This document shows, in pieces, positions 4,854-57,811 of a stretch of 64,000 nucleotides of DNA; the stretch's first letter is position 1, and every line of letters starts with the position of its first letter. The position numbers and the translations under genes are program-made. Source of the stretch: a virus; IMG/VR virus record IMGVR_UViG_3300042539_001764, positions 4,094 to 68,093 of that record. One strand, written 5' to 3'. Under the pieces are notes generated by a model that was given only the letters and a program-made list of their open reading frames with translations, did no database searches and was not told the origin of the DNA.

Positions 4854-7800
4854 ATGGCCGATCAAAGAATCACGGAACTTGTTGAACTCTCCCAAGGGGC
4901 AGTCGCTTCTGGTGACGTACTGCCGATTGTAGATATCAGCGCCAGCCAGACCAAGAAGGTACAGGTGAAAAGCCTCATCCAGGCTGGATTTAATTTAGCG
5001 GATTCCTCGACATTAGATATTGCAAAAATCAACCAAAGTAGCACCACAAAGATTGGCACGACTGCCATCGCGGATGGCGCCATTACTTATGCAAAAATTC
5101 AAAACGTTAGTGCTACAGACAAGCTTTTAGGAAGATCTTCTGCTGGCAGTGGCAACGTTGAAGAGATTACTTGCACTTCATTTGCTCGTACTATTCTTGA
5201 TGACGCCGATGCCGCAACGGTTCGTACAACTATTGGCCTGGGGGTGGTTGCAACTGGCAATACAGTTAATACTGCTCTGATTGAAGACGAGAGCGTTACC
5301 AGTGCAAAACTAGCAAGCGGTAGCGTAACTACCGTCAAGATTGCAGACAGTGGTGTAACAAACGCAAAGCTTGCCGCAAATTCAGTTGACAGCGTACAGC
5401 TAGTTGTTAGTGGCGTAACTGCAGGAAAACTGGCTGCTGATGCTGTAGTCACCGTCAATATTGCTGACAATGCAATTACGGGCGCAAAAATTGGAGCCGC
5501 TGCGGTCAGTGGCGTTCATATCGTCGATGGAAGCATTACGCAAAGCAAGCTAGCAAGTGGAAGCATTGCTACTGCTTACATTACCGATAGCGGCGTTACG
5601 CAAGTAAAACTTGCCGCTAATGCAGTAGCCACTGTAAATATTACAGACGGGAATGTTACTGCAGCGAAACTTGCGTCTGGCTCCGTTACGCTTGCCAAGC
5701 TTTCTCTCTCCTCTGGCGAACTTTCTGGCACTCTTATTACTGCAAGCTCTATACCTTCTGGAAGCTATGCAAGTGGTTCTATTCCCACTGCTGCCATCGC
5801 GGATAACGCAGTCACTTTTGCAAAAATTCAACAAGTGGCTAGTGGAGTGCTGCTTGGCAGGGCTTCTGCGGGAAGTGGAAATATTGAAGAGATTACGCTT
5901 ACTGCTGCTGGCAGAGCATTGTTGGATGATGCTGATGCGAGCGCTCAGCGCACAACGCTCGGCCTTGGAACGCTAGCCACGCAAAATGGCACATTCTCCG
6001 GCACATCCACTGGCACTAATACGGGTGATCAAACTATTACTCTTTCGGGAGATGTTACTGGCACAGGAACAGCCGGATTTAGCACCACTATTTCTAATGA
6101 TGCTGTAACAACAGTCAAAATTCTTGATAGCGCTGTTACAACTGCAAAAATTGTTGATAGCGGAGTTACTGCAGCAAAGCTTTCTGATAACTCTGCTGCC
6201 ATTGTTGCTGGTTCCACTCCTACAGGTGATGGTGATTTTATTGGTCAGCAATGGCTCAATACGAATACTGGCGTTGAATATACCTGGACTGGTAGTGTTT
6301 GGCAGCGTCAAAGTGGCCTTTCGACAACTGTCGTTTCAGGAGATACTGTTTACAGTTTTGCCACTTCCTATCCTGATGCTTTTAGCGCCTCCATTGTTCC
6401 TTCTTTAAATACGCAAGTTGCTACACGCTTCTTCGCTGGTCCAGCCAGTGGAAGTGCAGATGCAGCTCCTACTTTCCGGGCTATCACGGCCAGCGATCTT
6501 CCAAAGGCTACCACCAGCGATTTAGGCGTTGCTCAAGCTGGCACTGGACTCGTTACTGTCAGTGGCGTTTTTAATCACGCCAACAGCGTGGCATCTGGCA
6601 CGTATTACAAGGTGACAGTAGATGCGCAGGGACATGTAAGCGCTGGCGCAGCCAGTCTTGTAGCAGATGACATTCCTGCTCTTTCTGCAAGCAAAATTAC
6701 CACTGGCACCTTTGGAAGTGGCTTTATTGCAGACGAATCAATTCTTGCTTCTAAGCTTGCCAACTATTCAGTCAGTCAGTTTGGCGAAGCGCCGCCTGTA
6801 GCAGATTTTATTGGGCAATTCTTCTTCAATCCATTGGAGAAAGACCTCTATCTATGGGATGGTAACGTTTGGAATCCAGTTGGCATTAGTGTTGGTGAAA
6901 TTATTTTTGGCGGCACTTATAACGCTTCTGGAAACACTATTGCCAGCGTTAGCGCTGATGGTGCTGGTATTGGCCTTTCTGTGGGACAACCACTTCCCGC
7001 TGCATCGACTACGTTTAACCGTTATTACGTTGTGGTAGCCAGTGGCGGTACTGGCACTTCACCGGCTCCCGAAACAACTCTGCAGCCGCCTGATATTCTG
7101 CTTTGCAATGGCACAGCGTGGGTAGAGCTTGATGTTAGTTCCACCTATCTATCTCAAACTGCTTCTAACGTAGCTTTTGCGCCAGCAGGAACCATTGGAA
7201 GCACAAATGTTCAATCTGCTATTGAAGAAGTAAATACTGAATGCCGCAATGTCAATAATGTGGCTAGCGGTATTTTGGCCACTGGTTATGGCGGCACTGG
7301 AATTAATTCTTACACCAAAGGCGATATTCTTGTTGGCAGTGGCACCACATTAGTTAAGCAAGCAATTGGAACTAACGGTCAAGTGCTTACTGCTAATTCC
7401 GCGTTTGGCGGTGGTGTTCACTGGGTGACACCTGCAAGTGGTACTGTTCTTTCCGTAAGCGTTAATTCCCCGCTCACCGTTGTTAGCGGCACCACCACTC
7501 CGGTTATTTCAATTCCCGATGCATCGACAAGCGTCAGGGGAAGCGTGCAGCTTACTGATTCTGTCTCTACTACTAGTTCTTCGCTTGCCGCTACTGCTAC
7601 TGCAGTAAAGAGTGCTTATGACTTGGCAAACGCCGCTCTTCCAAGAGCCGGAGGCACTATTACTGGCGAAGTAGTCATTGGCAGTGCTGGCACTCTTCTT
7701 TTTGAAGGAGCTAGTGATGACGCTTTTGAAATTCAACTTGCTGCGGCAGACGCCACTGCAGATAGGACGATCACGCTTCCTAATATTACGGGAACCATTG

Positions 7801-8015
7801 TTACTACTGGCGACACCAGCACTGTTACAAACACGATGCTTGCTGGCAGCATTGCCGACACAAAGCTAAGCACTATTTCTACTGCTGGAAAAGTTAGCAA
7901 TAGCGCCACTACTGCTACAAGTGCCAATACAGCCAGTGCAATTGTTGCGCGTGATGCTAGTGGAAACTTCTCTGCTGGAACCATTGATGCCACAATTGAT
8001 GAAGGAACATTCTGA
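4854..8015 (+). CDS. Long tail fibre protein
   Basis: 1053 aa rich in A/S/T/G; many VTxAK(L/I)A repeats; DASTSVRGSVQL fibre repeat; IDEGTF C-terminus. Confidence 0.8.
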   Translation: MADQRITELVELSQGAVASGDVLPIVDISASQTKKVQVKSLIQAGFNLADSSTLDIAKINQSSTTKIGTTAIADGAITYAKIQNVSATDKLLGRSSAGSGNVEEITCTSFARTILDDADAATVRTTIGLGVVATGNTVNTALIEDESVTSAKLASGSVTTVKIADSGVTNAKLAANSVDSVQLVVSGVTAGKLAADAVVTVNIADNAITGAKIGAAAVSGVHIVDGSITQSKLASGSIATAYITDSGVTQVKLAANAVATVNITDGNVTAAKLASGSVTLAKLSLSSGELSGTLITASSIPSGSYASGSIPTAAIADNAVTFAKIQQVASGVLLGRASAGSGNIEEITLTAAGRALLDDADASAQRTTLGLGTLATQNGTFSGTSTGTNTGDQTITLSGDVTGTGTAGFSTTISNDAVTTVKILDSAVTTAKIVDSGVTAAKLSDNSAAIVAGSTPTGDGDFIGQQWLNTNTGVEYTWTGSVWQRQSGLSTTVVSGDTVYSFATSYPDAFSASIVPSLNTQVATRFFAGPASGSADAAPTFRAITASDLPKATTSDLGVAQAGTGLVTVSGVFNHANSVASGTYYKVTVDAQGHVSAGAASLVADDIPALSASKITTGTFGSGFIADESILASKLANYSVSQFGEAPPVADFIGQFFFNPLEKDLYLWDGNVWNPVGISVGEIIFGGTYNASGNTIASVSADGAGIGLSVGQPLPAASTTFNRYYVVVASGGTGTSPAPETTLQPPDILLCNGTAWVELDVSSTYLSQTASNVAFAPAGTIGSTNVQSAIEEVNTECRNVNNVASGILATGYGGTGINSYTKGDILVGSGTTLVKQAIGTNGQVLTANSAFGGGVHWVTPASGTVLSVSVNSPLTVVSGTTTPVISIPDASTSVRGSVQLTDSVSTTSSSLAATATAVKSAYDLANAALPRAGGTITGEVVIGSAGTLLFEGASDDAFEIQLAAADATADRTITLPNITGTIVTTGDTSTVTNTMLAGSIADTKLSTISTAGKVSNSATTATSANTASAIVARDASGNFSAGTIDATIDEGTF

Positions 8016-8087
8016 TCATTAAAAATAAAAGCCTTTTAGAATTGCGAAAGACTAATTAGTCTTCTGTAATTCCGAAAGGCTTTAATC

Positions 8088-10181
8088 ATGGCTGGTGTTC
8101 TTCAGCATCTGCGTTCATCAACGCTTAACAAGCGTCCTAATCCTGCTTCCATGGTTGATGGTCAATTGGCCATTAACTATGCCAGTGGCAGTCCTGGGGC
8201 ATATTTCAAGGACAGCAACGGTAACCTTGTAAAAGTGGGGCCTGTGCATGTAGGGAGTGGTGCTCCTAATGCAAGTCCTGCGAGTGGTGGCACTGCTGGC
8301 AATAGTCTTGGTGAGCAATGGCTCGATACCAGTGGTGGCACTTATGTATTTAAAATTTGGGACGGCAGTGCATGGCGTAGTGAAGCTGGTGAGTTTGTAA
8401 ACGTCACTGGCGATACAATGACTGGAGCATTGGGCGTTATTGCGGGCGATGCTTCTACTCCAGGATTATTTTTTAGCGGGGACGCAAATACTGGACTCTA
8501 CTCTCCCGGCGCAGACCAAGTAGCCATCAGCACTAATGGCACGGGCAGGCTTTACATAGCGGCGGATGGAAAAATTGGAGTGGGAGTTAGTAGCCCTAAT
8601 TTTTCCGCATCAATTTATGGAGCCACAAACAGCTACTCTCAATACATCAATGCCCTAAGCGGATCTACAAGTGGTGACGGGTTTTTAGTTGGACTAGACG
8701 AAGCCGGCAGTGCAGTTCTTAGGTACAGAGAAAGTGGAAGTTTAATTTTTTACACTTCTGATACTGAGCGCCTCCGCATCACCTCAACAGGGCTCGTAGG
8801 CATAGGGACTTCTAGCCCACAGGTTCTTCTTGACATTACAGATACAGGTAATCAACCCAAGCTGCGGCTAAGTACTAACACAGCTTCAAATTTTCTTGAA
8901 ATTAGCCGATCCTCCAGTACAGGTCATTACACTTTTGCGTCCGAAGAAAATGGATCCAGCATTATTTTTGCCACTGATCCCGATGGGACAGGTGCACAAA
9001 ACAGGGTCACGATAGATCGCTACGGGAAAGTAGGGATTGGCTCTACTGCGCCTGCAGACAAGCTATCCGTGGCAGGATCTTCTTCTGCAGATTTCAGAGC
9101 TTTAACGCTTAGAAACTCCAATGGCGCAACAGGTTCGGCCGCTGTTTTAACCTTTGAGGCATCTAGTGGGACAGAGGGTGATACTGGAGCAATCGCAAGC
9201 CAAATCAAAGGTGTACGAGACAATGTTGGAACAGCGGGTGGCCTTGAGTTTTGGACATCTAATTCAGGCACTCCGTATCAACGCGCCCGCATCGACAGCT
9301 CCGGCAGGTTGTTAGTTGGCACGTCTAGTGCGCGTCAAAGTAGCGGTGGTTTGCAGGTTGAGTCAACCGCTGGCAATTCTTTTGTAACGATTACAAGGAA
9401 CGATTCAGGGCCAAATGCACCGCAATTAAGTTTGCAAAAATCCCGTGGCACCGCCAACGGTCAGTTCACAGTAGTTAATTCAAACGATCAACTGGGCCAA
9501 ATAAACTTCAAAGGCGCGGACGGTACTGCTGACATTACGGCGGCCCAAATTCTTTCTGAAGTAGATGGCACCCCTGGCACCAACGACATGCCGGGCCGCT
9601 TAGTGTTCTCCACTACTGCGGACGGGGCGAGCAGCCCGACGGAGCGGATGAGGATCAGCAACACTGGCACAGTGCTCACATACAGCACAGATGATTGTAT
9701 TTCGGCCAGAGCTTCACAAGGAGCCGGGACAAGCTACTTCTTCTATAGGGGAATGCAAGGTGCATCCAGCACCACTGCAGGCGGCACTACTTCGTTTATT
9801 GTCTACACAAACGGGAATGTCCAGAACACTAATAATAGTTACGCGGGTATTTCTGACCTTAGGCTAAAAGAGAACATTGTTGACGCCACCTCGCAGTGGG
9901 CTGACATCAAAGCCCTTCAAGTTCGCAAGTACAACTTCAGGGAAGAAACAGGTCAACAGACCCACACTCAGATCGGCCTGATCGCCCAAGAGGTTGAACT
10001 TGTTTCCCCTGGCCTCGTCAGCGAATCACCTGACCGCGACGAAGACGGCAACGACCTTGGCACCGTCACCAAGAGCGTCAATTATTCCGTGCTCTACATG
10101 AAAGCCGTCAAGGCGTTGCAGGAAGCAATGGAGCGAATCGAAACCCTTGAGGCCGCCGTTGCAACTCTGCAAGGTTCGTAG
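8088..10181 (+). CDS. Tail fibre / receptor-binding protein with C-terminal S74-type intramolecular chaperone
   Basis: Repeated R.RI...G.VGIGT modules; SDLRLKENI...IGLIAQEVE...VNY...VKALQE chaperone signature. Confidence 0.85.
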   Translation: MAGVLQHLRSSTLNKRPNPASMVDGQLAINYASGSPGAYFKDSNGNLVKVGPVHVGSGAPNASPASGGTAGNSLGEQWLDTSGGTYVFKIWDGSAWRSEAGEFVNVTGDTMTGALGVIAGDASTPGLFFSGDANTGLYSPGADQVAISTNGTGRLYIAADGKIGVGVSSPNFSASIYGATNSYSQYINALSGSTSGDGFLVGLDEAGSAVLRYRESGSLIFYTSDTERLRITSTGLVGIGTSSPQVLLDITDTGNQPKLRLSTNTASNFLEISRSSSTGHYTFASEENGSSIIFATDPDGTGAQNRVTIDRYGKVGIGSTAPADKLSVAGSSSADFRALTLRNSNGATGSAAVLTFEASSGTEGDTGAIASQIKGVRDNVGTAGGLEFWTSNSGTPYQRARIDSSGRLLVGTSSARQSSGGLQVESTAGNSFVTITRNDSGPNAPQLSLQKSRGTANGQFTVVNSNDQLGQINFKGADGTADITAAQILSEVDGTPGTNDMPGRLVFSTTADGASSPTERMRISNTGTVLTYSTDDCISARASQGAGTSYFFYRGMQGASSTTAGGTTSFIVYTNGNVQNTNNSYAGISDLRLKENIVDATSQWADIKALQVRKYNFREETGQQTHTQIGLIAQEVELVSPGLVSESPDRDEDGNDLGTVTKSVNYSVLYMKAVKALQEAMERIETLEAAVATLQGS

Positions 10182-10278
10182 TCCCCTTCACTGCTGGTTT
10201 TGAGCAAGGCAACCCTGGCAGGCGCATTTTTTGTCAGCCAGACACGTTTTTGAGCAAAGCCAGTAGTCCACGTCTTGA
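8521..10278. repeat. TAG(T/G/C)-N7-(A/T)CT(A) inverted core sites in and after the tail fibre gene
   Basis: 8521 TAGCcatcagcACTA; 8797 TAGGcatagggACTT; 9031 TAGGgattggcTCTA; 9313 TAGTtggcacgTCTA; 9601 TAGTgttctccACTA; 10179 TAGTccccttcACTG; half-site at 10264 TAGTccacgtc. Confidence 0.7.
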
Positions 10279-10303
10279 CAAGGTCTAGCAAGAAGAGTAC
10301 CAT
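10275..10303 (+). promoter_or_regulatory. Sigma70-type promoter of the recombinase
   Basis: TTGACA-17 nt-TACCAT, 21 nt upstream of the ATG at 10325. Confidence 0.7.
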
Positions 10304-10324
10304 GAGTCTCCTCTTAAAACAACC

Positions 10325-11179
10325 ATGACAACCACTGTCTCAAGCCTTTGGAGCGCCTTCGTCGAAGAGCGCTCCATTTCTTTGTGTCCAACCAGCCTCA
10401 CTTCTGATTACAAACAAGTCAGTAAATGGCTGAATCGCTGTCCCATTCAAGACATTAACGATGCAAGAAAAGTGATGATTTGGGCGTTAGGAGAAAAGCC
10501 AGTACTCACTTCCAGGCGTGTAGCAATGTATATAAAGAGCATGTACCGATGGGCTGCGCAAGAAGACGTGGCCATTGTTGCTCGCAATCCGTTGGCAAGT
10601 TTTAAAATACCAAAGGCGCCACAACGCGAAGAGGAAATTGTTGTCATCCCTCGCAATGAGACGGCATTGGTTCTTGCCGCGCTAGAAGCCAAGCTCACCT
10701 ATCGAAATGTTAACTGGGCTTCGTACACGGAATTTATGCTTCAAACCGCAATGCGAACTGGTGAGGTGAGGGCAGCGAAATGGGACGACATCAAGGAGGG
10801 CAAGCTTTTGGTTCATCAAAACTATACTCTTACTCATGGACTAAAAAATAGTACAAAAACAAACAAACGTCGCTGGGTGCCTTTGAATAATCGTTGCCAA
10901 GAAATTCTTGCTGAGCTTCCTCGCGAAAATGAATTCATCTTCCCATGGAATCGACTAGCTTTTCAAAGCTATTTCAGAAAAAAGCTTTCGCCATTGCACG
11001 AAGCAGGATTGATTTCTCACGTTTATAGGCCTTACGATTGCCGACACACCGCCATTAGTCGCTGGATTGAAGCTGGCATTCCTGTACCGCAAGTGGCAAA
11101 TTGGGCGGGTAATACCAGTGAAGTGATTTTTAAACACTATTGCAATAGCACGCAAGAATATGAAATGCCAGTGCTGTAA
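10325..11179 (+). CDS. Tyrosine recombinase (integrase family)
   Basis: MRTGE (catalytic R), YDCRHT (HxxR-type), WAGN and KHY (catalytic Y); 284 aa with no obvious arm-binding domain. Confidence 0.9.
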   Translation: MTTTVSSLWSAFVEERSISLCPTSLTSDYKQVSKWLNRCPIQDINDARKVMIWALGEKPVLTSRRVAMYIKSMYRWAAQEDVAIVARNPLASFKIPKAPQREEEIVVIPRNETALVLAALEAKLTYRNVNWASYTEFMLQTAMRTGEVRAAKWDDIKEGKLLVHQNYTLTHGLKNSTKTNKRRWVPLNNRCQEILAELPRENEFIFPWNRLAFQSYFRKKLSPLHEAGLISHVYRPYDCRHTAISRWIEAGIPVPQVANWAGNTSEVIFKHYCNSTQEYEMPVL

Positions 11180-11245
11180 GTCGGTTTTCCGAAGAGACAG
11201 TTTTTCTTTCCATTGTTAAACTAACAAAGACCATTCTTTTAAATC

Positions 11246-11560
11246 ATGGCTATCACATACCAATGGGGCGTTGCTAATCTTGAGCGCCACCTTGCTGATG
11301 GAATCGTCTACACGGTTCACTATACGATTTCGGCCGATGATGGCACTTACGCTAGTTCGGCTTACGGGAGTCTTGGTCTTGAAGCTCCTGAAGAGGATGC
11401 TGCAATTCCTTATGCTCAGCTCACGCCGGAAATTGTCACTGGCTGGGTAAAAGACAAATTTGGCGCTGAGAAAGTGGCTGAAATTGAGGCCGCTCTCGCC
11501 GATCAAATTTCTCAACAGCGCACTCCCACTTCAGGAACCGGCTTGCCTTGGGCCAGTTAA
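11246..11560 (+). CDS. Tail-fibre-associated protein
   Basis: W...LER...VHY...IPY..LT...V.GWV...GLPW pattern typical of genes that follow S74 fibres. Confidence 0.6.
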   Translation: MAITYQWGVANLERHLADGIVYTVHYTISADDGTYASSAYGSLGLEAPEEDAAIPYAQLTPEIVTGWVKDKFGAEKVAEIEAALADQISQQRTPTSGTGLPWAS

Positions 11561-21796: not shown

Positions 21797-22738
21797 CTAT
21801 TGCTTTTTTGCAACGAAAGCTTTCATGCCTTCAATCATTGCTTCTGTATCCGGCAGGCTACGGACGGCATTGATTTCTTCAGTCATTTCAGCTTTGCCAA
21901 TGCCGATTTGCTCTTGCTTCGCCCAAAGGGTCATCATTGCTGCGACGACGTTTCCGAAGGCTTGCCAGGTTTTAACTTCCGTGGCGCGAGCAAGTCCAAT
22001 ACTTTCAAGAGCAGCTTTACCTGCAGCCATAGAAGCTTTCTCGTCGGCATAGTTCAAAGGATTGGCTTTGCACACTGCCGTGAGAGCAGTTTTTGCATCG
22101 AAAGGCTCAGGGGCAGAGTCAGGGGCAGAGTCATGGGCAGAGTCAGAAGTGCCACCAGTAGTTGCTGTCGCAACCTTCTTGGCCGCACGAGCAGGCTTTG
22201 GGGAGTCTTGCTGCAGCGCAGGTTTTGGCGCTTCCTCTTTCGGGATGTCCTCTCCGGCATAGAGCCGAAGACCAAGGCCCGTGAAGGTAGCGATGGCCTT
22301 GACGCTGGCACGTTGGATGTTGTCACTAATGGCGCGACCATCGAGCTGTTGTATGGAATTGTGCTTCCTGTCCATCACTGGAAACACCAGTGCAGGAGTG
22401 CGGCGAATGCCGTCTGTGAGATAGGGGCGAAGAATGAAAGCACCAGGCTCGCCAAACACGGGCCATCCAAGAGTTTTCTCCTCAAACGCCACATACAGCG
22501 TCGGGAAATGCTCTTTCAGATAGCGGAAAGCAAACGGCCAAGACAGATAAGAGAGGCCCTTGTAATCCTTCTCAATGTGAGGGCCAATATCGGGAGTGTC
22601 ATAGGCCGCTTTGAAATCTGCGGCGCTGATTTCCAGCGGAGTGAAGATGCCGTTGTAGCGATCCATCATTGCTGCTTTTGCTGAATCTTCCATGGAAGAA
22701 AAATCGGAAGGAGAGTAGGTGAGGATAGTGTGGTTCAT
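21797..22738 (-). CDS. Single-strand annealing protein (Sak3/DUF1071, Rad52-like)
   Basis: IEK..KGLSYLSW, FPVMD..HN, I.DNIQRA.VKAIA..TGLGL.LYAGEDIP. Confidence 0.85.
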   Translation of the reverse strand: MNHTILTYSPSDFSSMEDSAKAAMMDRYNGIFTPLEISAADFKAAYDTPDIGPHIEKDYKGLSYLSWPFAFRYLKEHFPTLYVAFEEKTLGWPVFGEPGAFILRPYLTDGIRRTPALVFPVMDRKHNSIQQLDGRAISDNIQRASVKAIATFTGLGLRLYAGEDIPKEEAPKPALQQDSPKPARAAKKVATATTGGTSDSAHDSAPDSAPEPFDAKTALTAVCKANPLNYADEKASMAAGKAALESIGLARATEVKTWQAFGNVVAAMMTLWAKQEQIGIGKAEMTEEINAVRSLPDTEAMIEGMKAFVAKKQ

Positions 22739-29813: not shown

Positions 29814-30032
29814 TTGACAATGGAAAACAAAGAAATCATTCATCTTGCATACGAATATGCAGATTCATTTACAAGTGGCTTTATATTTAGCGAGGATAAT
29901 TTAATTGATTTTGCGAAGGCAATTTTAAATTATTCTGCAGCAATAAAGCCCCAGCCTTTTTATAAAGACGAATTCACTGAAAGCTACATTAAAGAGCTAG
30001 CAAGTTCTACACACTACGAGGTTCAACAATGA
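29814..30032 (+). CDS. Hypothetical protein
   Basis: 72 aa; IDFAKAIL motif. Confidence 0.5.
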   Translation: MTMENKEIIHLAYEYADSFTSGFIFSEDNLIDFAKAILNYSAAIKPQPFYKDEFTESYIKELASSTHYEVQQ

Positions 30033-30148
30033 CTCAAGAACACCCAATTACTCCGCCGCCTGAGCTACTCCGTCAGTGGCGCACGGACGCACAAGAGGTT
30101 TTGCCGAGTGATTCTTACTTTTACATCGCCACCCAAGCCGCCCGATGA
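30029..30148 (+). CDS. Short, possibly truncated protein MTQEHPITPPPELL... (39 aa)
   Basis: Manual translation; ATGA overlaps on both sides. Confidence 0.45.
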   Translation: MTQEHPITPPPELLRQWRTDAQEVLPSDSYFYIATQAAR

Positions 30149-30663
30149 CTGATTACACAGCAACGACCGATCAATGGGCCGACACGGAGCATTGGGCTCG
30201 GCACAACGGCAACGCTCAAGCTTGCATCCTTGAACTCCGCGCCAGAATCGAGGTGCTAGAAAATGCGGCTCAGAAGCACATCGTCGAAACCACTTCAAAC
30301 ATTCTTGCCTTATTTGGACGGGTTGAATCGTTAGAAGCTGCTGAACGCCAAACATCAACGGTCCACCAGATCAGCAAACCTCTGAAACTTACTGCAAAGC
30401 AGCAGGCAGAGTTAAAAGCATTGCTGACGCCCGATTTTAGGGTTGGCATGACGCCAACTTCTACTTCAAGCCAAGTTGGTAGTTCGCTAGTGGATGAGGT
30501 AGCCCGTGCCATTGGTCGAGACGATGAACCCATCAACTGGGAGGAAGAAGCCCGCGCTGCGATCCGCACGGTTGCCTTGTGGCTTAACGAAGCTCCGTTG
30601 CATCTTTACCCCGGTGATCGCGGCACCATTGTCAATACTCTTTATGACCAAGCGAATCAATGA
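30145..30663 (+). CDS. Hypothetical, apparently modular protein
   Basis: 172 aa; CILELRARIEVLE coiled segment plus EARAAIR.VA.WL segment. Confidence 0.6.
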   Translation: MTDYTATTDQWADTEHWARHNGNAQACILELRARIEVLENAAQKHIVETTSNILALFGRVESLEAAERQTSTVHQISKPLKLTAKQQAELKALLTPDFRVGMTPTSTSSQVGSSLVDEVARAIGRDDEPINWEEEARAAIRTVALWLNEAPLHLYPGDRGTIVNTLYDQANQ

Positions 30664-30842
30664 ATGACTTCAAATTTGTGCCACTGAACAGCCTTGAGAA
30701 TCGCCTCGGTGATGCCCTCGGCCTTGCCATTGCCATGATCCGCGACCCAAGCACCGTGGACAACAAAACCATGGCTCAGATAGAAGCACCATTCAAGGAA
30801 TGGTGCGATGGTCTCGTTGATGGAGGTCTATTCAATGACTGA
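30660..30842 (+). CDS. Hypothetical protein
   Basis: 60 aa; ATGA overlap. Confidence 0.55.
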   Translation: MNDFKFVPLNSLENRLGDALGLAIAMIRDPSTVDNKTMAQIEAPFKEWCDGLVDGGLFND

Positions 30843-30892
30843 CATCTTTCCGCCGTGCTCTTGAGTCCCTGCCCGATTAGTCAACATCACTA

Positions 30893-31069
30893 ATGACTGA
30901 CCAACAAATTATCCAGGCGGCACGCGAAGCCGGTCTTTGCTTTCCAACTTGTTGGAGCTTGATAGCCCCTTGGGATCCCACCAGAGACGTCAGCGACGAG
31001 TGGGGTGGCTACGAGCAAGGACAGATGGATAAGCTGCGCCACTTTGCTGAACTGATCAAAGCCTCCTAG
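30893..31069 (+). CDS. Cassette gene (58 aa)
   Basis: ATG directly after the ACTA arm; its stop TAG is the left arm of the next site. Confidence 0.6.
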   Translation: MTDQQIIQAAREAGLCFPTCWSLIAPWDPTRDVSDEWGGYEQGQMDKLRHFAELIKAS

Positions 31070-31086
31070 TCCACCTCGCTAAGACC

Positions 31087-31296
31087 ATGACTGAACTATC
31101 TCCCGCCGCGCAGGCGGTGTTGAAAGCAGCCTGCATCCACCACGGTTTATTCAACGAAGAAATCGTGCAGCGTCGTCGTATGGTTGCCGCCGTCCTGCGG
31201 GCTGCTGCGGATCAGGTGGTCATCAAACTGGCAGGGCTTGGACAAGAAAGCGCCTGGTATCTGGAAGAGATCGCCACCGAGCTTGAAGCCCAGTAG
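31087..31296 (+). CDS. Cassette gene (69 aa)
   Basis: MTELSPAAQAVL...AAVLRAAADQV...IATELEAQ; stop TAG lies within a site. Confidence 0.65.
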   Translation: MTELSPAAQAVLKAACIHHGLFNEEIVQRRRMVAAVLRAAADQVVIKLAGLGQESAWYLEEIATELEAQ

Positions 31297-31317
31297 TCCG
31301 ATCAACTAACCACCACC

Positions 31318-31503
31318 ATGACCTTACCAACCAACAGCATTATCTTTCGCGCAGGTCGTGTCCCCGATGAAGTCATCCGCATCGACGCCGAAGGCTTCCA
31401 CTACCGAGGCCAGTTCATTGAAGATGCAGGAGAAGCCCACCGCCTGCTGGTGGAGTTTCTACGCAAGCACCAGCCAGATACTGACTGGAAACACGCCAAG
31501 TAG
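31318..31503 (+). CDS. Cassette gene (61 aa)
   Basis: EGFHYRGQFIEDAGEAHRL; stop TAG lies within a site. Confidence 0.65.
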   Translation: MTLPTNSIIFRAGRVPDEVIRIDAEGFHYRGQFIEDAGEAHRLLVEFLRKHQPDTDWKHAK

Positions 31504-31573
31504 TCAGACCCACCTCTAGCTTTTTGCTAATTATCAGGATTTCCAATAAACGCCATTTATCAGGATTCTTGAT

Positions 31574-31600
31574 AAGGCCCCTTAAGGGGCCTTATTATTT
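31574..31600 (+). terminator. Hairpin terminator closing the cassette array
   Basis: AAGGCCCC-TTAA-GGGGCCTT-ATTATTT. Confidence 0.6.
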
Positions 31601-31789
31601 GTCCAAACCGTATCACCTGGCAATGGTTCAAGACCTACGTTCCAAGTATCAAAATCATCTTCGTTGCGAGGATCGTAAACTTCCCCGCTCGCCATCCATC
31701 GCTTAAGCCTTTCCCTTTCCTGCTCCGCAGAAAGCTTCATGATCGGCTAGCTCTGTATTGCCCGAGTCTAGCTAGCCCCGTATAAGCAA

Positions 31790-31996
31790 AAGAAAAGGGG
31801 CCTTGCGGCCCCCTCTCTTTACACCCTCCGATACCTCGCTTTCCCTTCAGTTACATAGGGAGATGACGCGCCTCGCGGGAGACCATGCCTAGCTCCCTGG
31901 CTAAGCCATACGGCTTTGCCCGCATCATCAGAAGTGTCCACCCTCACGGCTCGCCCGAAGACGAGAGCAGCAATTAAGCCGCTAGGACCGAGTGCT
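31790..31996 (-). ncRNA. Candidate stand-alone structured ncRNA (~200 nt)
   Basis: Own extended -10 (TGtTATGAT, 32010-32002), multiple stems including a UUCG loop, own terminator, no ORF in the track. Confidence 0.65.
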
Positions 31997-32107
31997 CAGA
32001 AATCATAACACGCCAGGTCCGTTCGGCAGCTCCCTGGAAATTCATGGCACAATGGGCATTGCGCTTCCAGAGATGGTTGCGCCCTCGCTAGCTCTCTCTC
32101 CTTCTTA

Positions 32108-32458
32108 ATGAAACGACTTTTTCTTTCCTTCCTGCTGCTCTGCCCCTTATCAGTGCAGGCAGCAACGCTCCAATGTGGCCGTGCATCTCACTACGGCATT
32201 GGCGATGGCTATCACGGGCAACGTGCTGCTAATGGTTCCCGCTTTGATGCCTATGCCCTCACTGCTGCCCACCCCTGGCTTCCATTTGGCACGAAAGTGC
32301 TTGTAAAGAACCGTAACAATGGAAAGGCCGTGGCGGTGACAATCACTGATAGAGGCCCTTACGCTCATGGGCGCATCCTCGATCTGTCTTACGGCAGCTT
32401 CTCTCGCATTGCTTCCCCTTCCCAAGGCGAAGCTTCCATCTGCATTTCCAAACTATGA
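32108..32458 (+). CDS. RlpA-like lytic transglycosylase (DPBB domain) with signal peptide
   Basis: G.AS.YG...ANG..FD...LTAAH..LPFGT...V.V.ITDRGP....RILDLS. Confidence 0.88.
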   Translation: MKRLFLSFLLLCPLSVQAATLQCGRASHYGIGDGYHGQRAANGSRFDAYALTAAHPWLPFGTKVLVKNRNNGKAVAVTITDRGPYAHGRILDLSYGSFSRIASPSQGEASICISKL

Positions 32459-44101: not shown

Positions 44102-44224
44102 GCCTAAGCCTCTGAAGCGATTAGCGCTTGTTAATCGCTTCATGCTTAGGCCATCTGGCCCTGAAGTGTTGGCACACGTCATGCAGATAGCATGGAATAC
44201 TGGGTTCGATTCCCAGCAGCGCCT
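44102..44224 (+). ncRNA. Long hairpin followed by an atypical tRNA-like element (44157-44224)
   Basis: Cloverleaf with canonical T arm CTGGG-TTCGATT-CCCAG, 4-nt D loop and non-canonical anticodon loop CAGATAG. Confidence 0.6.
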
Positions 44225-45251: not shown

Positions 45252-45272
45252 GATAGTTCCCGATGATGCTGG

Positions 45273-45320
45273 CCCCGTTCCGTGCCAGCGAGTCATGCGC
45301 CCCTTACGGGGTGAACGTAC
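45273..45320 (-). promoter_or_regulatory. Glutamine-II (Downstream-peptide) riboswitch
   Basis: CGTTCA-CCCC-GTAA-GGGG-CGCA...CTG...GGAACGGG; extended -10 TGcTACACT just upstream. Confidence 0.8.
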
Positions 45321-45336
45321 CAACAGTGTAGCAAAG

Positions 45337-45410
45337 TACCCTCAGTGGGATTTGAACCCACACTGAAGCGATTTTAAGTCGCTTGCCTCTTCCGATTGGG
45401 CTACGAGGGC
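45337..45410 (-). tRNA. trnL: tRNA-Leu(UAA), short variable arm, CCA not encoded
   Basis: GCCCTCG/TGAGGGT-A acceptor; AGCGA-CT-TAA-AA-TCGCT anticodon arm; GTGGG-TTCAAAT-CCCAC T arm. Confidence 0.9.
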
Positions 45411-57526: not shown

Positions 57527-57811
57527 TTATTCTCGCTTTGCATTGACCACGAACGAAGGATAGCCCATTAGCCATAGCACGCTAATTCCATAGAGGCCAC
57601 TGAGAGTTCTCACCTGCACGCAATCCGGCGGTAGCACCGCTCGTTCAATGCGCGAGTAAGAGCTTTGACTAATATGTAAAGCATCTGCCACATCTTTCTG
57701 AGAGAGCCCGCTATTAAGGCGGGCTTCTTTAATGCGAGAAGCGATGAGAAGGCGAGCCTGCTGATGAGGCATTTTAAGGACATCAGCGGTACTCTTCTTA
57801 AGAAACATCAC
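57527..57811 (-). CDS. XRE-family HTH regulator
   Basis: RIKEAR...GLSQ..VA..L.ISQSSYSRIE...L..LY.IS..WL. Confidence 0.85.
   Translation of the reverse strand: MMFLKKSTADVLKMPHQQARLLIASRIKEARLNSGLSQKDVADALHISQSSYSRIERAVLPPDCVQVRTLSGLYGISVLWLMGYPSFVVNAKRE

What the first reader, a model, noticed from the sequence alone, without database searches (positions are those of the whole stretch)
8521..11179. Tail-fibre gene split into same-frame modules by TAGT-N7-ACTA sites, next to a tyrosine recombinase: candidate natural cassette-exchange system
Seen: six 15-bp inverted sites with a 7-bp spacer at 8521 (TAGCcatcagcACTA), 8797, 9031, 9313, 9601 (TAGTgttctccACTA) and 10179 (whose TAG is the fibre stop codon), plus a half-site at 10264 abutting the recombinase -35 box. 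All five internal sites are in the same codon register (GTA-GNN or TTA-GTN), lie at or near junctions of the repeated protein modules (QVAIST, LVGIGT, KVGIGS, LLVGTS, RLVFST) and have different spacers. Established: tyrosine recombinases act on inverted arms around 6-8-bp spacers and need spacer identity. Inference: non-matching spacers would block deletion within one genome but allow in-frame swapping of matching modules between co-infecting relatives. That would diversify the receptor-binding protein by a route distinct from invertase shufflons and DGRs. No repressor gene lies beside the recombinase.
Basis: partly seen in the sequence, partly recalled or inferred. Interest (0 to 1): 0.92.

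Follow-up and report, generated by a model that had tools for sequence, protein, structure and literature searches.

The report
Mosaic cyanophage tail fibre, bystander integrase
A cyanophage tail-fibre gene is made of highly variable blocks joined by short, strongly conserved stretches that let relatives swap blocks in frame, most likely by ordinary homologous recombination and not through the integrase gene next door.

Summary
The six sites exist at the stated coordinates. The five internal ones share one codon register and all six spacers differ. Only 9601 is a perfect TAGT-N7-ACTA; three sites have one mismatch and two have two. The fibre ORF holds 17 matches of that quality, no more than synonymous-codon shuffles give (p about 0.35). 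The sites are the codon image of a five-fold structural repeat (L.F.T ... ER.RI...G.VGIGTSSP) in an S74-type trimeric fibre.

Across about 130 related viral loci the fibre is a mosaic: unalignable blocks lie between nucleotide-conserved islands of 50-130 nt that contain the sites. Three of the sites are among the four strongest peaks of synonymous-codon conservation in the gene.

The link to the integrase fails.
- The same islands, including the exact 15-mer of site 9601, occur in complete cyanophages with no tyrosine recombinase (0 of 5).
- Only 6 of 32 loci selected by island B alone carry the integrase.
- Close relatives lack the integrase as a clean cassette.

The phage encodes a Sak single-strand-annealing protein. 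Best reading: in-frame module shuffling by homologous recombination at conserved motif islands, as described for T-even fibres and adhesins. The integrase target remains unknown.

The parts
8088..10181 (+). Tail-fibre gene (697 aa): conserved N-terminal part, five ~75-115-aa repeats, C-terminal S74 intramolecular chaperone
   Evidence: ORF. Pfam Peptidase_S74 at aa 589-644, E 1.6e-11. PHROG tail-fibre families, E down to 6.9e-87. PDB sequence matches to Bdellovibrio trimeric fibres: 8OND E 5.8e-9, 8OML E 2.1e-8. Repeat alignment.
8088..8470 (+). N-terminal domain, co-linear with the upstream gene in syntenic relatives (about 78-82% nt identity)
   Evidence: blastn HSPs run from the upstream gene into the fibre and end at 8524-8586 in 11 loci. 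In 11 syntenic relatives, aa identity is 0.92 and codon identity 0.69.
8470..8560 (+). Island A (contains site 8521-8535, QVAIST)
   Evidence: Coverage peak of about 52 HSPs against 0 in the next 150 nt.
8755..8815 (+). Island 2, weak (contains site 8797-8811, LVGIGT)
   Evidence: 7 HSPs. Codon table. 94.7% identity over 38 nt with phage 7B11-B.
9020..9050 (+). Island 3 (contains site 9031-9045, KVGIGS)
   Evidence: GTA 78 of 93 Val, GGG 80 of 97 Gly, ATT 82 of 91 Ile. Third-ranked 5-codon window for codon conservation.
9275..9335 (+). Island B (contains site 9313-9327, LLVGTS)
   Evidence: About 82 HSPs. 47 of 47 nt identical with podovirus S-CBP4. At least 120 viral contigs match a degenerate 36-mer.
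9540..9670 (+). Island C (contains site 9601-9615, RLVFST, and the equally conserved PTERMRI block)
   Evidence: About 114 HSPs. Per-codon table. Top-ranked windows 9600-9614 and 9636-9650.
9790..10160 (+). Conserved C-terminal region including the S74 chaperone; SDLRLK fits the SDxxxK motif
   Evidence: Coverage about 78 HSPs. Pfam. SDLRLK read from the translation. SDxxxK motif as given in passages of PMC10769870.
10179..10193 (+). Sixth site; its TAG is the fibre stop codon. Start of a 3' untranslated stretch conserved in many fibres
   Evidence: Many loci align through 10184-10198.
10182..10263 (+). About 85-nt hairpin-forming element bounded by TAGTCC at 10179 and 10264. Present in a few relatives, absent in L055 and L046
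   Evidence: Alignments. Fold -35.7 kcal/mol, z -2.33.
10275..10303 (+). Promoter-like site upstream of the integrase (TTGACA-17-TACCAT)
   Evidence: A consensus match only.
10325..11179 (+). Tyrosine recombinase (284 aa). An optional cassette, roughly 10293-11179, inserted between the fibre stop and the terminator hairpin that precedes DUF7936
   Evidence: PF00589, 51.3 bits against a cut-off of 27.1. Invariant R144, R240, H241, W260, Y272 in 9 homologues. Cassette absent in L003, L055, L046 and others.
11246..11560 (+). DUF7936 gene, a backbone gene found with or without the integrase
   Evidence: Pfam E 1.2e-36. Gap to the integrase is 37-70 nt in most loci. Present in 29 of 32 island-B loci.
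21797..22738 (-). Sak-type single-strand-annealing protein, the candidate recombinase for homologous exchange
   Evidence: PF06378, E 6.5e-20, 71.7 bits against a cut-off of 22.3.
57527..57811 (-). HTH_3 (Cro/CI-type) DNA-binding protein, about 47 kb from the integrase

Best explanation
The window is 94% of a 68-kb cyanophage genome. The 8088-10181 gene encodes a trimeric beta-helix-type tail fibre. It has an N-terminal attachment part, five repeats that each carry the motif L.F.T...ER.RI...G.VGIGTSSP...L.V, and a self-cleaving S74 chaperone.

The TAGT-N7-ACTA 'sites' are what the two most conserved strands of that repeat look like in DNA: GTA or TTA followed by G, then ACT or TCT followed by A.

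Across related phages the variable blocks between these motifs have been replaced many times. The motif-coding stretches (islands of 50-130 nt) stay nearly identical in nucleotide sequence, even between phage families.

The most likely mechanism (inferred, not shown) is homologous recombination during co-infection. Crossovers or conversion tracts would start in the identical islands, driven by the phage's own Sak annealing protein and/or host RecA. Because the islands are in frame and encode the structural joints, every exchange gives a foldable fibre. Lineages that keep the canonical island sequence keep access to the module pool, which would explain the constraint on synonymous sites.

The integrase is an optional gene cassette inserted between the fibre stop codon and its terminator. 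It is probably an integration or resolution enzyme with an unidentified target, and it is not needed for the mosaicism.
For: Shown:
- Genome and gene identities.
- Island-and-gap pattern: no nucleotide hit in 8600-8750, 8840-9020, 9080-9260 or 9350-9500 (one HSP lies at island 3), against coverage peaks at the islands, in 448 HSPs from 161 loci.
- Codon identity given the same residue, in 3275 locus pairs whose variable blocks are <30% identical: 0.60 (island B), 0.63 (island C), 0.54 (S74), 0.41 (N-terminus), 0.31-0.35 (variable blocks). Pooled codon usage predicts 0.28-0.29 for islands B and C.
- Identity to S-CBP4: 47 of 47 nt in island B and 94% of 71 nt in island C.
- Island B in 73 instances sits between 66 left-flank and 68 right-flank clusters. 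4 of 6 multi-member left clusters join more than one right cluster.
- 15 strict change-points, about 7 independent comparisons with 8 boundaries. 6 boundaries lie at an island or motif edge on the side facing the divergent flank; 2 (9108, 9501) lie inside variable blocks.
- Independence from the integrase: 0 of 5 complete island-bearing cyanophages have PF00589; 6 of 32 island-B loci have the integrase; 8 syntenic loci lack it.
- A Sak annealing protein is encoded.
- No reverse transcriptase, no serine recombinase, and no inverted repeat of 14 nt or more joining fibre segments.

From the literature:
- Conserved motifs separating hypervariable segments and mediating shuffling in T-even fibres and adhesins (passages of PMC3157838).
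- Annealing proteins recombine diverged substrates and generate phage mosaics (abstract starts of PMC5499656 and PMC3945230).
Against: - No crossover was observed directly. Because the islands are identical in both partners, the position of an exchange inside an island cannot be resolved. The data therefore cannot separate homologous exchange from a site-specific cut inside the island.
- Synonymous conservation peaks quite sharply on the 5-codon cores of three sites: 0.72 against 0.39-0.59 for the rest of the same islands. Simple homologous recombination does not obviously predict this. It may instead follow residue conservation.
- Among the 11 closest relatives the islands are no more conserved at synonymous sites than the vertically inherited N-terminus: 0.69-0.77 against 0.69, with only island B at p 0.04.
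- 32 of 40 integrase loci with enough upstream sequence do have a fibre homologue just upstream. The adjacency is therefore conserved and remains unexplained.
- The loci are not independent samples. Several pairs come from one contig (L007/L089, L054/L108, L018/L116) and all were found by similarity to this window.
Confidence: 0.6

Rival explanations
1. The neighbouring tyrosine recombinase binds the TAGT-N7-ACTA sites and exchanges matching modules between co-infecting genomes. Mismatched spacers prevent deletion within one genome.
For: - The sites sit on the conserved joints.
- Their codons are conserved in homologues.
- Three sites are top-ranked peaks of synonymous conservation.
- Fibre-integrase adjacency is seen in 32 of 40 loci and in phage S-LBS1.
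- No lysogeny was shown for S-LBS1 (passages of PMC6157547).
- Only 2 related copies were found in one-genome-per-species bacterial contigs, both short MAG contigs.
Against: - No excess of the motif over synonymous-codon shuffles.
- 2 of 6 sites have two arm mismatches.
- 4-bp arms are far shorter than the 7-13-bp arms of loxP, FRT, dif or lambda core sites. This comparison is recalled, not tested.
- The exact site 9601 and 14 of 14 aligned bases of site 9313 occur in S-CBP4 and/or 7B11-B, whose complete genomes have no PF00589.
- S-RIP1 and RN05-S keep the island but lose TAG or ACTA through synonymous changes.
- 26 of 32 island-B loci lack the integrase at the locus.
- The non-site block PTERM is equally conserved.
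- The integrase is a clean presence/absence cassette.
Confidence: 0.03
2. There is no recombination role at all. The islands are conserved only because the residues are structurally essential. The mosaic arose by rare illegitimate recombination filtered by selection. The codon conservation reflects codon preference or shared ancestry.
For: - The motif is a structural element also found in Bdellovibrio fibres (passages of PMC10769870).
- Codon conservation tracks residue conservation.
- Islands equal the N-terminus in close relatives.
- 2 of 8 independent boundaries (9108, 9501) lie inside variable blocks.
Against: - Codon identity of 0.60-0.63 in islands B and C is twice the 0.28-0.29 expected from codon usage, in pairs whose flanks are saturated.
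- The preferred codons (TTA, GTA, ACG) are not the gene's commonest.
- 47 of 47 nt are shared with an unrelated podovirus.
- Left and right flank clusters reassort around island B.
Confidence: 0.2
3. The nucleotide constraint serves another DNA or RNA function: slow codons that pace folding of the trimer, an mRNA structure, or a target of a nuclease or recombinase other than the integrase.
For: Sharp 5-codon peaks of synonymous conservation. Non-preferred codons such as ACG (8 of 68 Thr codons in the gene) are fixed at 110 of 121 Thr.
Against: No test supports any particular function. The whole window has no Rfam match at gathering score other than a tRNA and a riboswitch. The peaks coincide with the most conserved residues.
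Confidence: 0.07

Closest known systems
Conserved-motif-mediated shuffling in T-even long tail fibre and gp38 adhesin genes (glycine-rich motifs between hypervariable segments; Tetart 1998 as cited in Trojet 2011, PMC3157838)
   Same: Hypervariable segments alternate with strictly conserved short motifs that form the structural core. Exchanges between relatives swap host-range determinants in frame. The motifs are proposed to mediate the exchange (passages).
   Different: A different fold and family: an S74-type beta-helix fibre, not gp37/gp38. The phages are cyanophages of several families. Recombinants have not been made experimentally. Here the synonymous-site constraint is quantified. I did not see whether that was done for the T-even case.
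Bdellovibrio 'mosaic adhesive trimer' fibres and phage S74 fibres (Caulton 2024, PMC10769870; PDB 8OND, 8OML)
   Same: Sequence-level match of the repeat region, E 5.8e-9 and 2.1e-8. Both have an ER.RI...G.VGI.T..P...L motif and an S74 chaperone with SDxxxK. The paper describes trimeric beta-helix segments with capping loops of consensus V-G-G/N-pi-x-x-P-x-x-x-L (passages).
   Different: Those are bacterial surface fibres. No nucleotide-level islands or recombination were discussed in the passages I saw. Mapping the capping-loop consensus onto VGIGTSSP is my inference.
Shufflons (Rci tyrosine recombinase with sfx repeats), Gin/Cin fibre invertases, and DGRs
   Same: All diversify a receptor-binding protein. 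Rci is a tyrosine recombinase acting inside a coding region (recalled).
   Different: No inverted repeats of 14 nt or more joining fibre segments. No serine recombinase. No reverse transcriptase. There are no alternative cassettes in inverted orientation.
Integrase of Synechococcus phage S-LBS1 (PMC6157547)
   Same: 78% identical protein in the same position, right after a tail-fibre gene and before a DUF7936-like gene.
   Different: A 34.6-kb siphovirus backbone. The authors propose lysogeny but found no integration by mitomycin C induction, and they name a 14-bp repeat inside ORFs as the att site (passages). That sequence was not examined here.

Membership tests
S74-type (endosialidase-chaperone) phage tail fibre | C-terminal Peptidase_S74 domain above the Pfam cut-off | tested here: met
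   PF13884, 44.8 bits against a cut-off of 22, aa 589-644.
S74-type (endosialidase-chaperone) phage tail fibre | SDxxxK catalytic motif | tested here: met
   SDLRLK at aa 589-594 in the translation. Motif as stated in passages of PMC10769870. Self-cleavage itself was not tested.
S74-type (endosialidase-chaperone) phage tail fibre | Trimeric beta-helix shaft upstream of the chaperone | tested here: inconclusive
   Sequence matches to solved trimeric fibres 8OND and 8OML. No structure was predicted here.
Tyrosine recombinase (PF00589) | Catalytic domain match above the curated cut-off | tested here: met
   51.3 bits against 27.1. PHROG 1 integrase, E 9.9e-39.
Tyrosine recombinase (PF00589) | Conserved R..K..H-x-x-R..H/W..Y active-site residues | tested here: inconclusive
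   R144, K174/K178/K181, R240, H241, W260 and Y272 are invariant in 9 homologues of 61-81% identity. Y237 stands where the first His is expected. The assignment is by position only.
Temperate-phage integration module | attP next to int matching a host attB, and integrated copies in host genomes | tested here: not met
   No attP was identified. The genome-contig scan found 2 related copies, both on short MAG contigs with int at the contig end. 1 of 60 loci has a tRNA beside int. This scan finds close relatives only, so absence is not shown.
   4 against 3.1 and 17 against 15.7 in codon shuffles. 19 against 24.8 window-wide.
   0 of 5 complete island-bearing phages have PF00589. 6 of 32 island-B loci have the integrase. 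The exact site is present in S-CBP4 and 7B11-B.
   Needs EMSA and in vitro recombination assays.
Conserved-motif homologous shuffling of fibre modules (T-even type) | Variable segments bounded by motifs conserved at nucleotide level over a length usable for homologous recombination | tested here: met
   Islands of 50-130 nt. 47 of 47 nt and 94% of 71 nt shared with S-CBP4.
Conserved-motif homologous shuffling of fibre modules (T-even type) | Natural recombinants whose ancestry switches at the motifs | tested here: met
   6 of 8 independent boundaries lie at island or motif edges. Flanks reassort around island B.
Conserved-motif homologous shuffling of fibre modules (T-even type) | Recombination shown to depend on homology and a recombinase | not testable with these tools
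   A Sak annealing protein is encoded. No experiment was possible.
Shufflon, Gin/Cin inversion, or DGR | Inverted repeats with alternative segments; a serine invertase; or a reverse transcriptase with template repeat | tested here: not met

The most novel reading that the evidence does not exclude
The 50-130-nt islands are maintained as DNA-level standard connectors. Selection acts on their nucleotide sequence, not only on the residues. As a result, S74-type fibres of unrelated cyanophage families (podo-, myo- and siphoviruses and this 68-kb phage) form one shared pool of in-frame exchangeable beta-helix modules.

The sharp 5-codon peaks of synonymous constraint at LVGTS, VGIGS, LVFST and PTERM would then mark the preferred initiation or resolution points of exchange. 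A sequence-specific enzyme other than the neighbouring integrase could be acting there.
Probability: 0.3. Interest if true: 0.6.

Novelty: new member of a known kind. Interest (0 to 1): 0.35.

Why it matters
Host range in cyanophages is set largely by fibres like this one. The data suggest that fibres from different cyanophage families share short, nucleotide-identical joints, at which variable receptor-binding blocks appear to have been reassorted. This gives a concrete and testable route for rapid host-range change in freshwater and marine picocyanobacterial viruses. It also gives natural junction points for building chimeric fibres in laboratory phage-host pairs.

The result removes an attractive but unsupported idea, a dedicated recombinase-driven cassette exchanger. 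It leaves two real open questions. What do the widespread S-LBS1-type integrases of freshwater cyanophages act on? Why are synonymous sites at the joints so strongly fixed?

Tried and rejected
- Shufflon or inversion system: rejected. No inverted repeats join fibre segments and there is no serine recombinase.
- DGR: rejected. No reverse transcriptase.
- attP search: not resolved. The int-flanking intergenic DNA was aligned in int-plus and int-minus relatives. This defined the cassette borders (TCTAG ... TAAG) and an ~85-nt hairpin element, but no site with host identity. tRNA scans of 60 loci gave one tRNA-Arg beside int, in L105. The single genome-contig scan gave only 2 MAG contigs.
- Integrase relatives: none solved in the PDB (0 hits). 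XerD/XerC models match only far below their cut-offs.
- TAGTCC.C.TC.CT as a general boundary motif: not enriched in the window (12 against 9.4 expected; 18 against 13.2). It does lie on the TAG stops of a block of small ORFs. See Noticed in passing.
- T7-like RNA polymerase as a reading of the ..TCACTA.. motif: no match, but the control genomes were silent too, so this says nothing.
- RecT, ERF, AAA_24: no match. Sak was found instead.
- Loose change-point scan (124 events): set aside. A 25-codon window can be filled by an island alone. It was replaced by the strict scan.
- Exact crossover mapping inside islands: not possible in principle, because both partners are identical there.
- Not done: no structure prediction, fold search, complex prediction, read mapping or large protein-database search. 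Supplementary files of the papers were not opened. Supplementary tables of PMC6157547 and PMC10769870 may bear on the att sites and on the capping-loop alignment.

Full report
WHAT THE WINDOW IS. The window is bases 4094-68093 of a single 68,093-base virus record rated 95% complete. Its structural genes, a glutamine-II riboswitch beside a tRNA-Leu and its best matches in the phage collection all point to a cyanophage: 26 of 27 matching records are Synechococcus phages.
- The finding covers a 697-aa ORF (8088-10181) and a 284-aa ORF (10325-11179).
- The first ORF is a tail fibre. It has a Pfam Peptidase_S74 domain at aa 589-644, PHROG tail-fibre families down to E 6.9e-87, and sequence matches to the solved trimeric fibres of Bdellovibrio (8OND E 5.8e-9, 8OML E 2.1e-8).
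- The second ORF is a tyrosine recombinase: PF00589 at 51.3 bits against a cut-off of 27.1. R144, R240, H241, W260 and Y272 are invariant in nine homologues. It has no solved relative and only sub-threshold XerC/D similarity.

THE OBSERVATION. The five internal ones share a codon register and all spacers differ. As inverted repeats they are weak: one is perfect, three have one mismatch and two have two.
- The fibre ORF has 17 matches of that quality.
- Shuffling synonymous codons while keeping the protein and the gene's codon usage gives as many: 3.1 against 4 at <=1 mismatch, and 15.7 against 17 at <=2, with p 0.35 and 0.37.
- A codon-aware shuffle of 94 ORFs across the window shows no excess either: 19 against 24.8, and 255 against 258.
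- Only the exact pattern exceeds a dinucleotide null: 4 against 0.22 expected. The other three exact hits are elsewhere (30878, 31294, 32821).

An alignment of five repeat units explains the pattern. The fibre repeats the motif ..G.L.F.T....ER.RI...G.VGIGTSSP...L.V.
- A GTA or TTA codon followed by G gives TAG.
- An ACT or TCT codon followed by A gives (A/T)CTA, five codons later.
- Two sites (8521, 9601) fall on the first strand of the motif and three (8797, 9031, 9313) on the second. They are therefore not even the same position of the repeat.

WHAT RELATIVES SHOW. I fetched 80 viral loci with the fibre protein and 80 with the integrase. Some contigs appear in both sets.
- In syntenic relatives, nucleotide identity of 78-82% runs through the upstream gene into the fibre. 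It stops at 8524-8586 in 11 loci.
- Beyond that point nothing aligns except short islands: 8470-8560, weakly 8755-8815 and 9020-9050, then 9275-9335 and 9540-9670, then the C-terminal domain at 9790-10160.

A protein-anchored codon table over 130 loci shows that homologues keep the same codons at the sites: TTA in 98 of 117 Leu, GTT in 93 of 115 Val, ACG in 110 of 121 Thr, TCT in 103 of 115 Ser, GTG in 94 of 102 Val, TTC in 116 of 119 Phe, GTA in 78 of 93 Val. This sample was not selected on island nucleotides.

In 3275 locus pairs whose variable blocks are below 30% residue identity, codon identity given the same residue is as follows.
- Island B: 0.60. Island C: 0.63.
- S74 domain: 0.54. N-terminus: 0.41.
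- Variable blocks: 0.31-0.35.
- Codon usage alone predicts 0.28-0.29 for islands B and C.

A sliding 5-codon scan ranks PTERM (9636-9650), LVFST (site 9601), VGIGS (site 9031) and LVGTS (site 9313) first, at 0.72-0.73. Identity breaks near the sites, and synonymous positions there are constrained.

WHY THE INTEGRASE IS NOT THE AGENT.
1. The conserved unit is the island, not the 15-mer. Neighbouring codons without any site are fixed as strongly: GCG 0.91, ACG 0.85, CGG 0.86, and the 398-404 block at about 0.7-0.86. PTERM ties for first rank.
2. The islands occur at nucleotide level in complete Synechococcus phages of other families: S-CBP4, S-RIP1 and 7B11-B (Autographiviridae), S-N03 (Kyanoviridae), and the 206.5-kb RN05-S with T4-like annotations.
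   - None of the five has a PF00589 match (0 of 5).
   - S-CBP4 and 7B11-B carry the exact 15-mer of site 9601. S-CBP4 shares 47 of 47 nt of island B.
   - S-RIP1 and RN05-S keep the island but lose TAG or ACTA through synonymous changes.
3. A sample chosen by island B alone tells the same story. Of the 32 loci with at least 4 kb downstream, 6 have the integrase, 29 have DUF7936 and 29 have island C.
4. The integrase is a presence/absence cassette. In 8 syntenic loci (L003, L010, L011, L046, L055, L057, L058, L080) similarity jumps from the fibre end to 11179-11207. Alignments place the insert between the fibre stop and the terminator hairpin ahead of DUF7936.
5. 4-bp arms are much shorter than those of characterised tyrosine-recombinase core sites. 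This point is recalled, not tested.

EVIDENCE AGAINST MY READING, OR LEFT OPEN.
- 32 of 40 integrase loci with at least 2.5 kb upstream have a fibre homologue just upstream. S-LBS1 has the same order. The adjacency is conserved and I cannot explain it beyond shared synteny.
- No attP, attB or integrated copy was found. The S-LBS1 authors saw no integration by mitomycin C induction (passages).
- The site cores are more conserved at synonymous positions than the rest of their islands: 0.72 against 0.39-0.59 for islands 3, B and C. There is no such difference for island A and only a small one for island 2.
- In the 11 closest relatives the islands are no better conserved than the N-terminus.

MECHANISM PROPOSED. 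Around island B, 73 instances sit between 66 left-flank and 68 right-flank clusters. 4 of 6 multi-member left clusters pair with more than one right cluster.
- A strict change-point scan required at least 180 nt at >=96% identity next to 60 nt at <=62%. It found 15 events, which reduce to about 7 independent comparisons with 8 boundaries.
- Six boundaries lie at an island or motif edge on the side facing the divergent flank: 8594-8601, 8770, 9029, 9330, 9650 and 9854. Two (9108, 9501) lie inside variable blocks.
- This is what exchange inside identical islands would look like. It cannot show where inside the island the exchange occurred.
- The phage encodes a Sak single-strand-annealing protein at 21797-22738(-), E 6.5e-20. 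Such proteins recombine diverged substrates and create phage mosaics (abstract starts of PMC5499656 and PMC3945230).
- No reverse transcriptase, no serine invertase and no inverted fibre segments exist.

I therefore read the locus as in-frame module shuffling by homologous recombination at conserved structural-motif islands. The constraint on synonymous sites would be a consequence of, or a selected aid to, that exchange. Shown: the mosaic, the islands, the constraint and the independence from the integrase. Inferred: the recombination mechanism and the role of Sak.

COMPARISON WITH WHAT IS KNOWN. The closest described case is the T-even long-fibre and gp38 system. There, hypervariable segments are separated by strictly conserved motifs that form the structural core and are proposed to mediate shuffling (passages of PMC3157838; Tetart 1998 is known to me only through that paper's citations).
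- Structurally the repeats belong with the S74-type trimeric fibres and the Bdellovibrio MAT fibres. That paper describes beta-helix segments closed by capping loops of consensus V-G-G/N-pi-x-x-P-x-x-x-L (passages of PMC10769870). Equating that consensus with VGIGTSSP here is my inference.
- My two literature searches on cyanophage fibre mosaicism and motif-mediated recombination listed no paper describing these nucleotide islands in cyanophages. That is not proof that none exists.

VERDICT. The sites are real strings but not a distinct class of recombinase targets. The fibre is a modular mosaic with conserved in-frame joints, which is a new example of a known kind. The integrase is an optional neighbour of unknown target. 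Interest is moderate, and it rests on the cross-family nucleotide identity and the sharp synonymous constraint at the joints.

Noticed in passing
window 30029-31520; L007 6731-7552: A block of small ORFs (39-172 aa) whose TAG stop codons are followed by TC....(C/T)CACTA-like sequence a few bases before the next ATG (30878, 31067, 31294, 31501). Homologous small ORFs (MTQEHPITPPPEL..., M[ST]ELSPAAQ...ELEAQ*) lie between fibre and integrase in relative L007, next to an ORF that looks like an HNH/AP2-type endonuclease (my reading of its sequence; no family search was run). In L007 the sequence after the ELEAQ stop matches what follows the fibre stop in the window, so relatedness switches at TAG|TC. 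Two of the window's four exact TAGT-N7-ACTA hits lie in this block. The motif is not enriched window-wide.
   Followed up: partly
window 10182-10263: An element of about 85 nt bounded by TAGTCC direct repeats (10179, 10264), with internal TTTTGAGCAAGGC / TTTTTGAGCAAAGCC repeats and a long hairpin (-35.7 kcal/mol, z -2.33). It is present in L003, L007 and L103 and absent in L055 and L046.
   Followed up: partly
window 45268-45410 (-): A tRNA-Leu(TAA) is immediately followed by a glutamine-II riboswitch aptamer (40.9 bits against a gathering score of 33) in a phage genome. A tRNA-Ile(GAT) lies at 44157-44224.
   Followed up: no
L105 4897-4970: One integrase-bearing relative has a tRNA-Arg(ACG) 30 nt upstream of the integrase start, between fibre and integrase. 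It could be a moron or a remnant of an att-type tRNA. It is 1 of 60 loci scanned.
   Followed up: no
L003 about 5430-6000 and 7300-8320: Relative L003 carries two tandem fibre C-terminal regions, each matching island C and the S74 region; the second also matches island B. It has no integrase.
   Followed up: no
window 4854-8015: The upstream 1053-aa gene is a second fibre-like protein with its own direct repeats spaced at multiples of about 60 nt (copies 120, 180 and 480 nt apart) and a Phage_fiber_2 repeat.
   Followed up: no
window 31520-32100: About 600 nt with no ORF of 60 aa or more, containing several G+C-rich hairpins followed by T runs (for example 31575-31600 and 31795-31815). It lies upstream of a 116-aa ORF at 32108-32458 whose N-terminus looks like a signal peptide (my reading only).
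   Followed up: no
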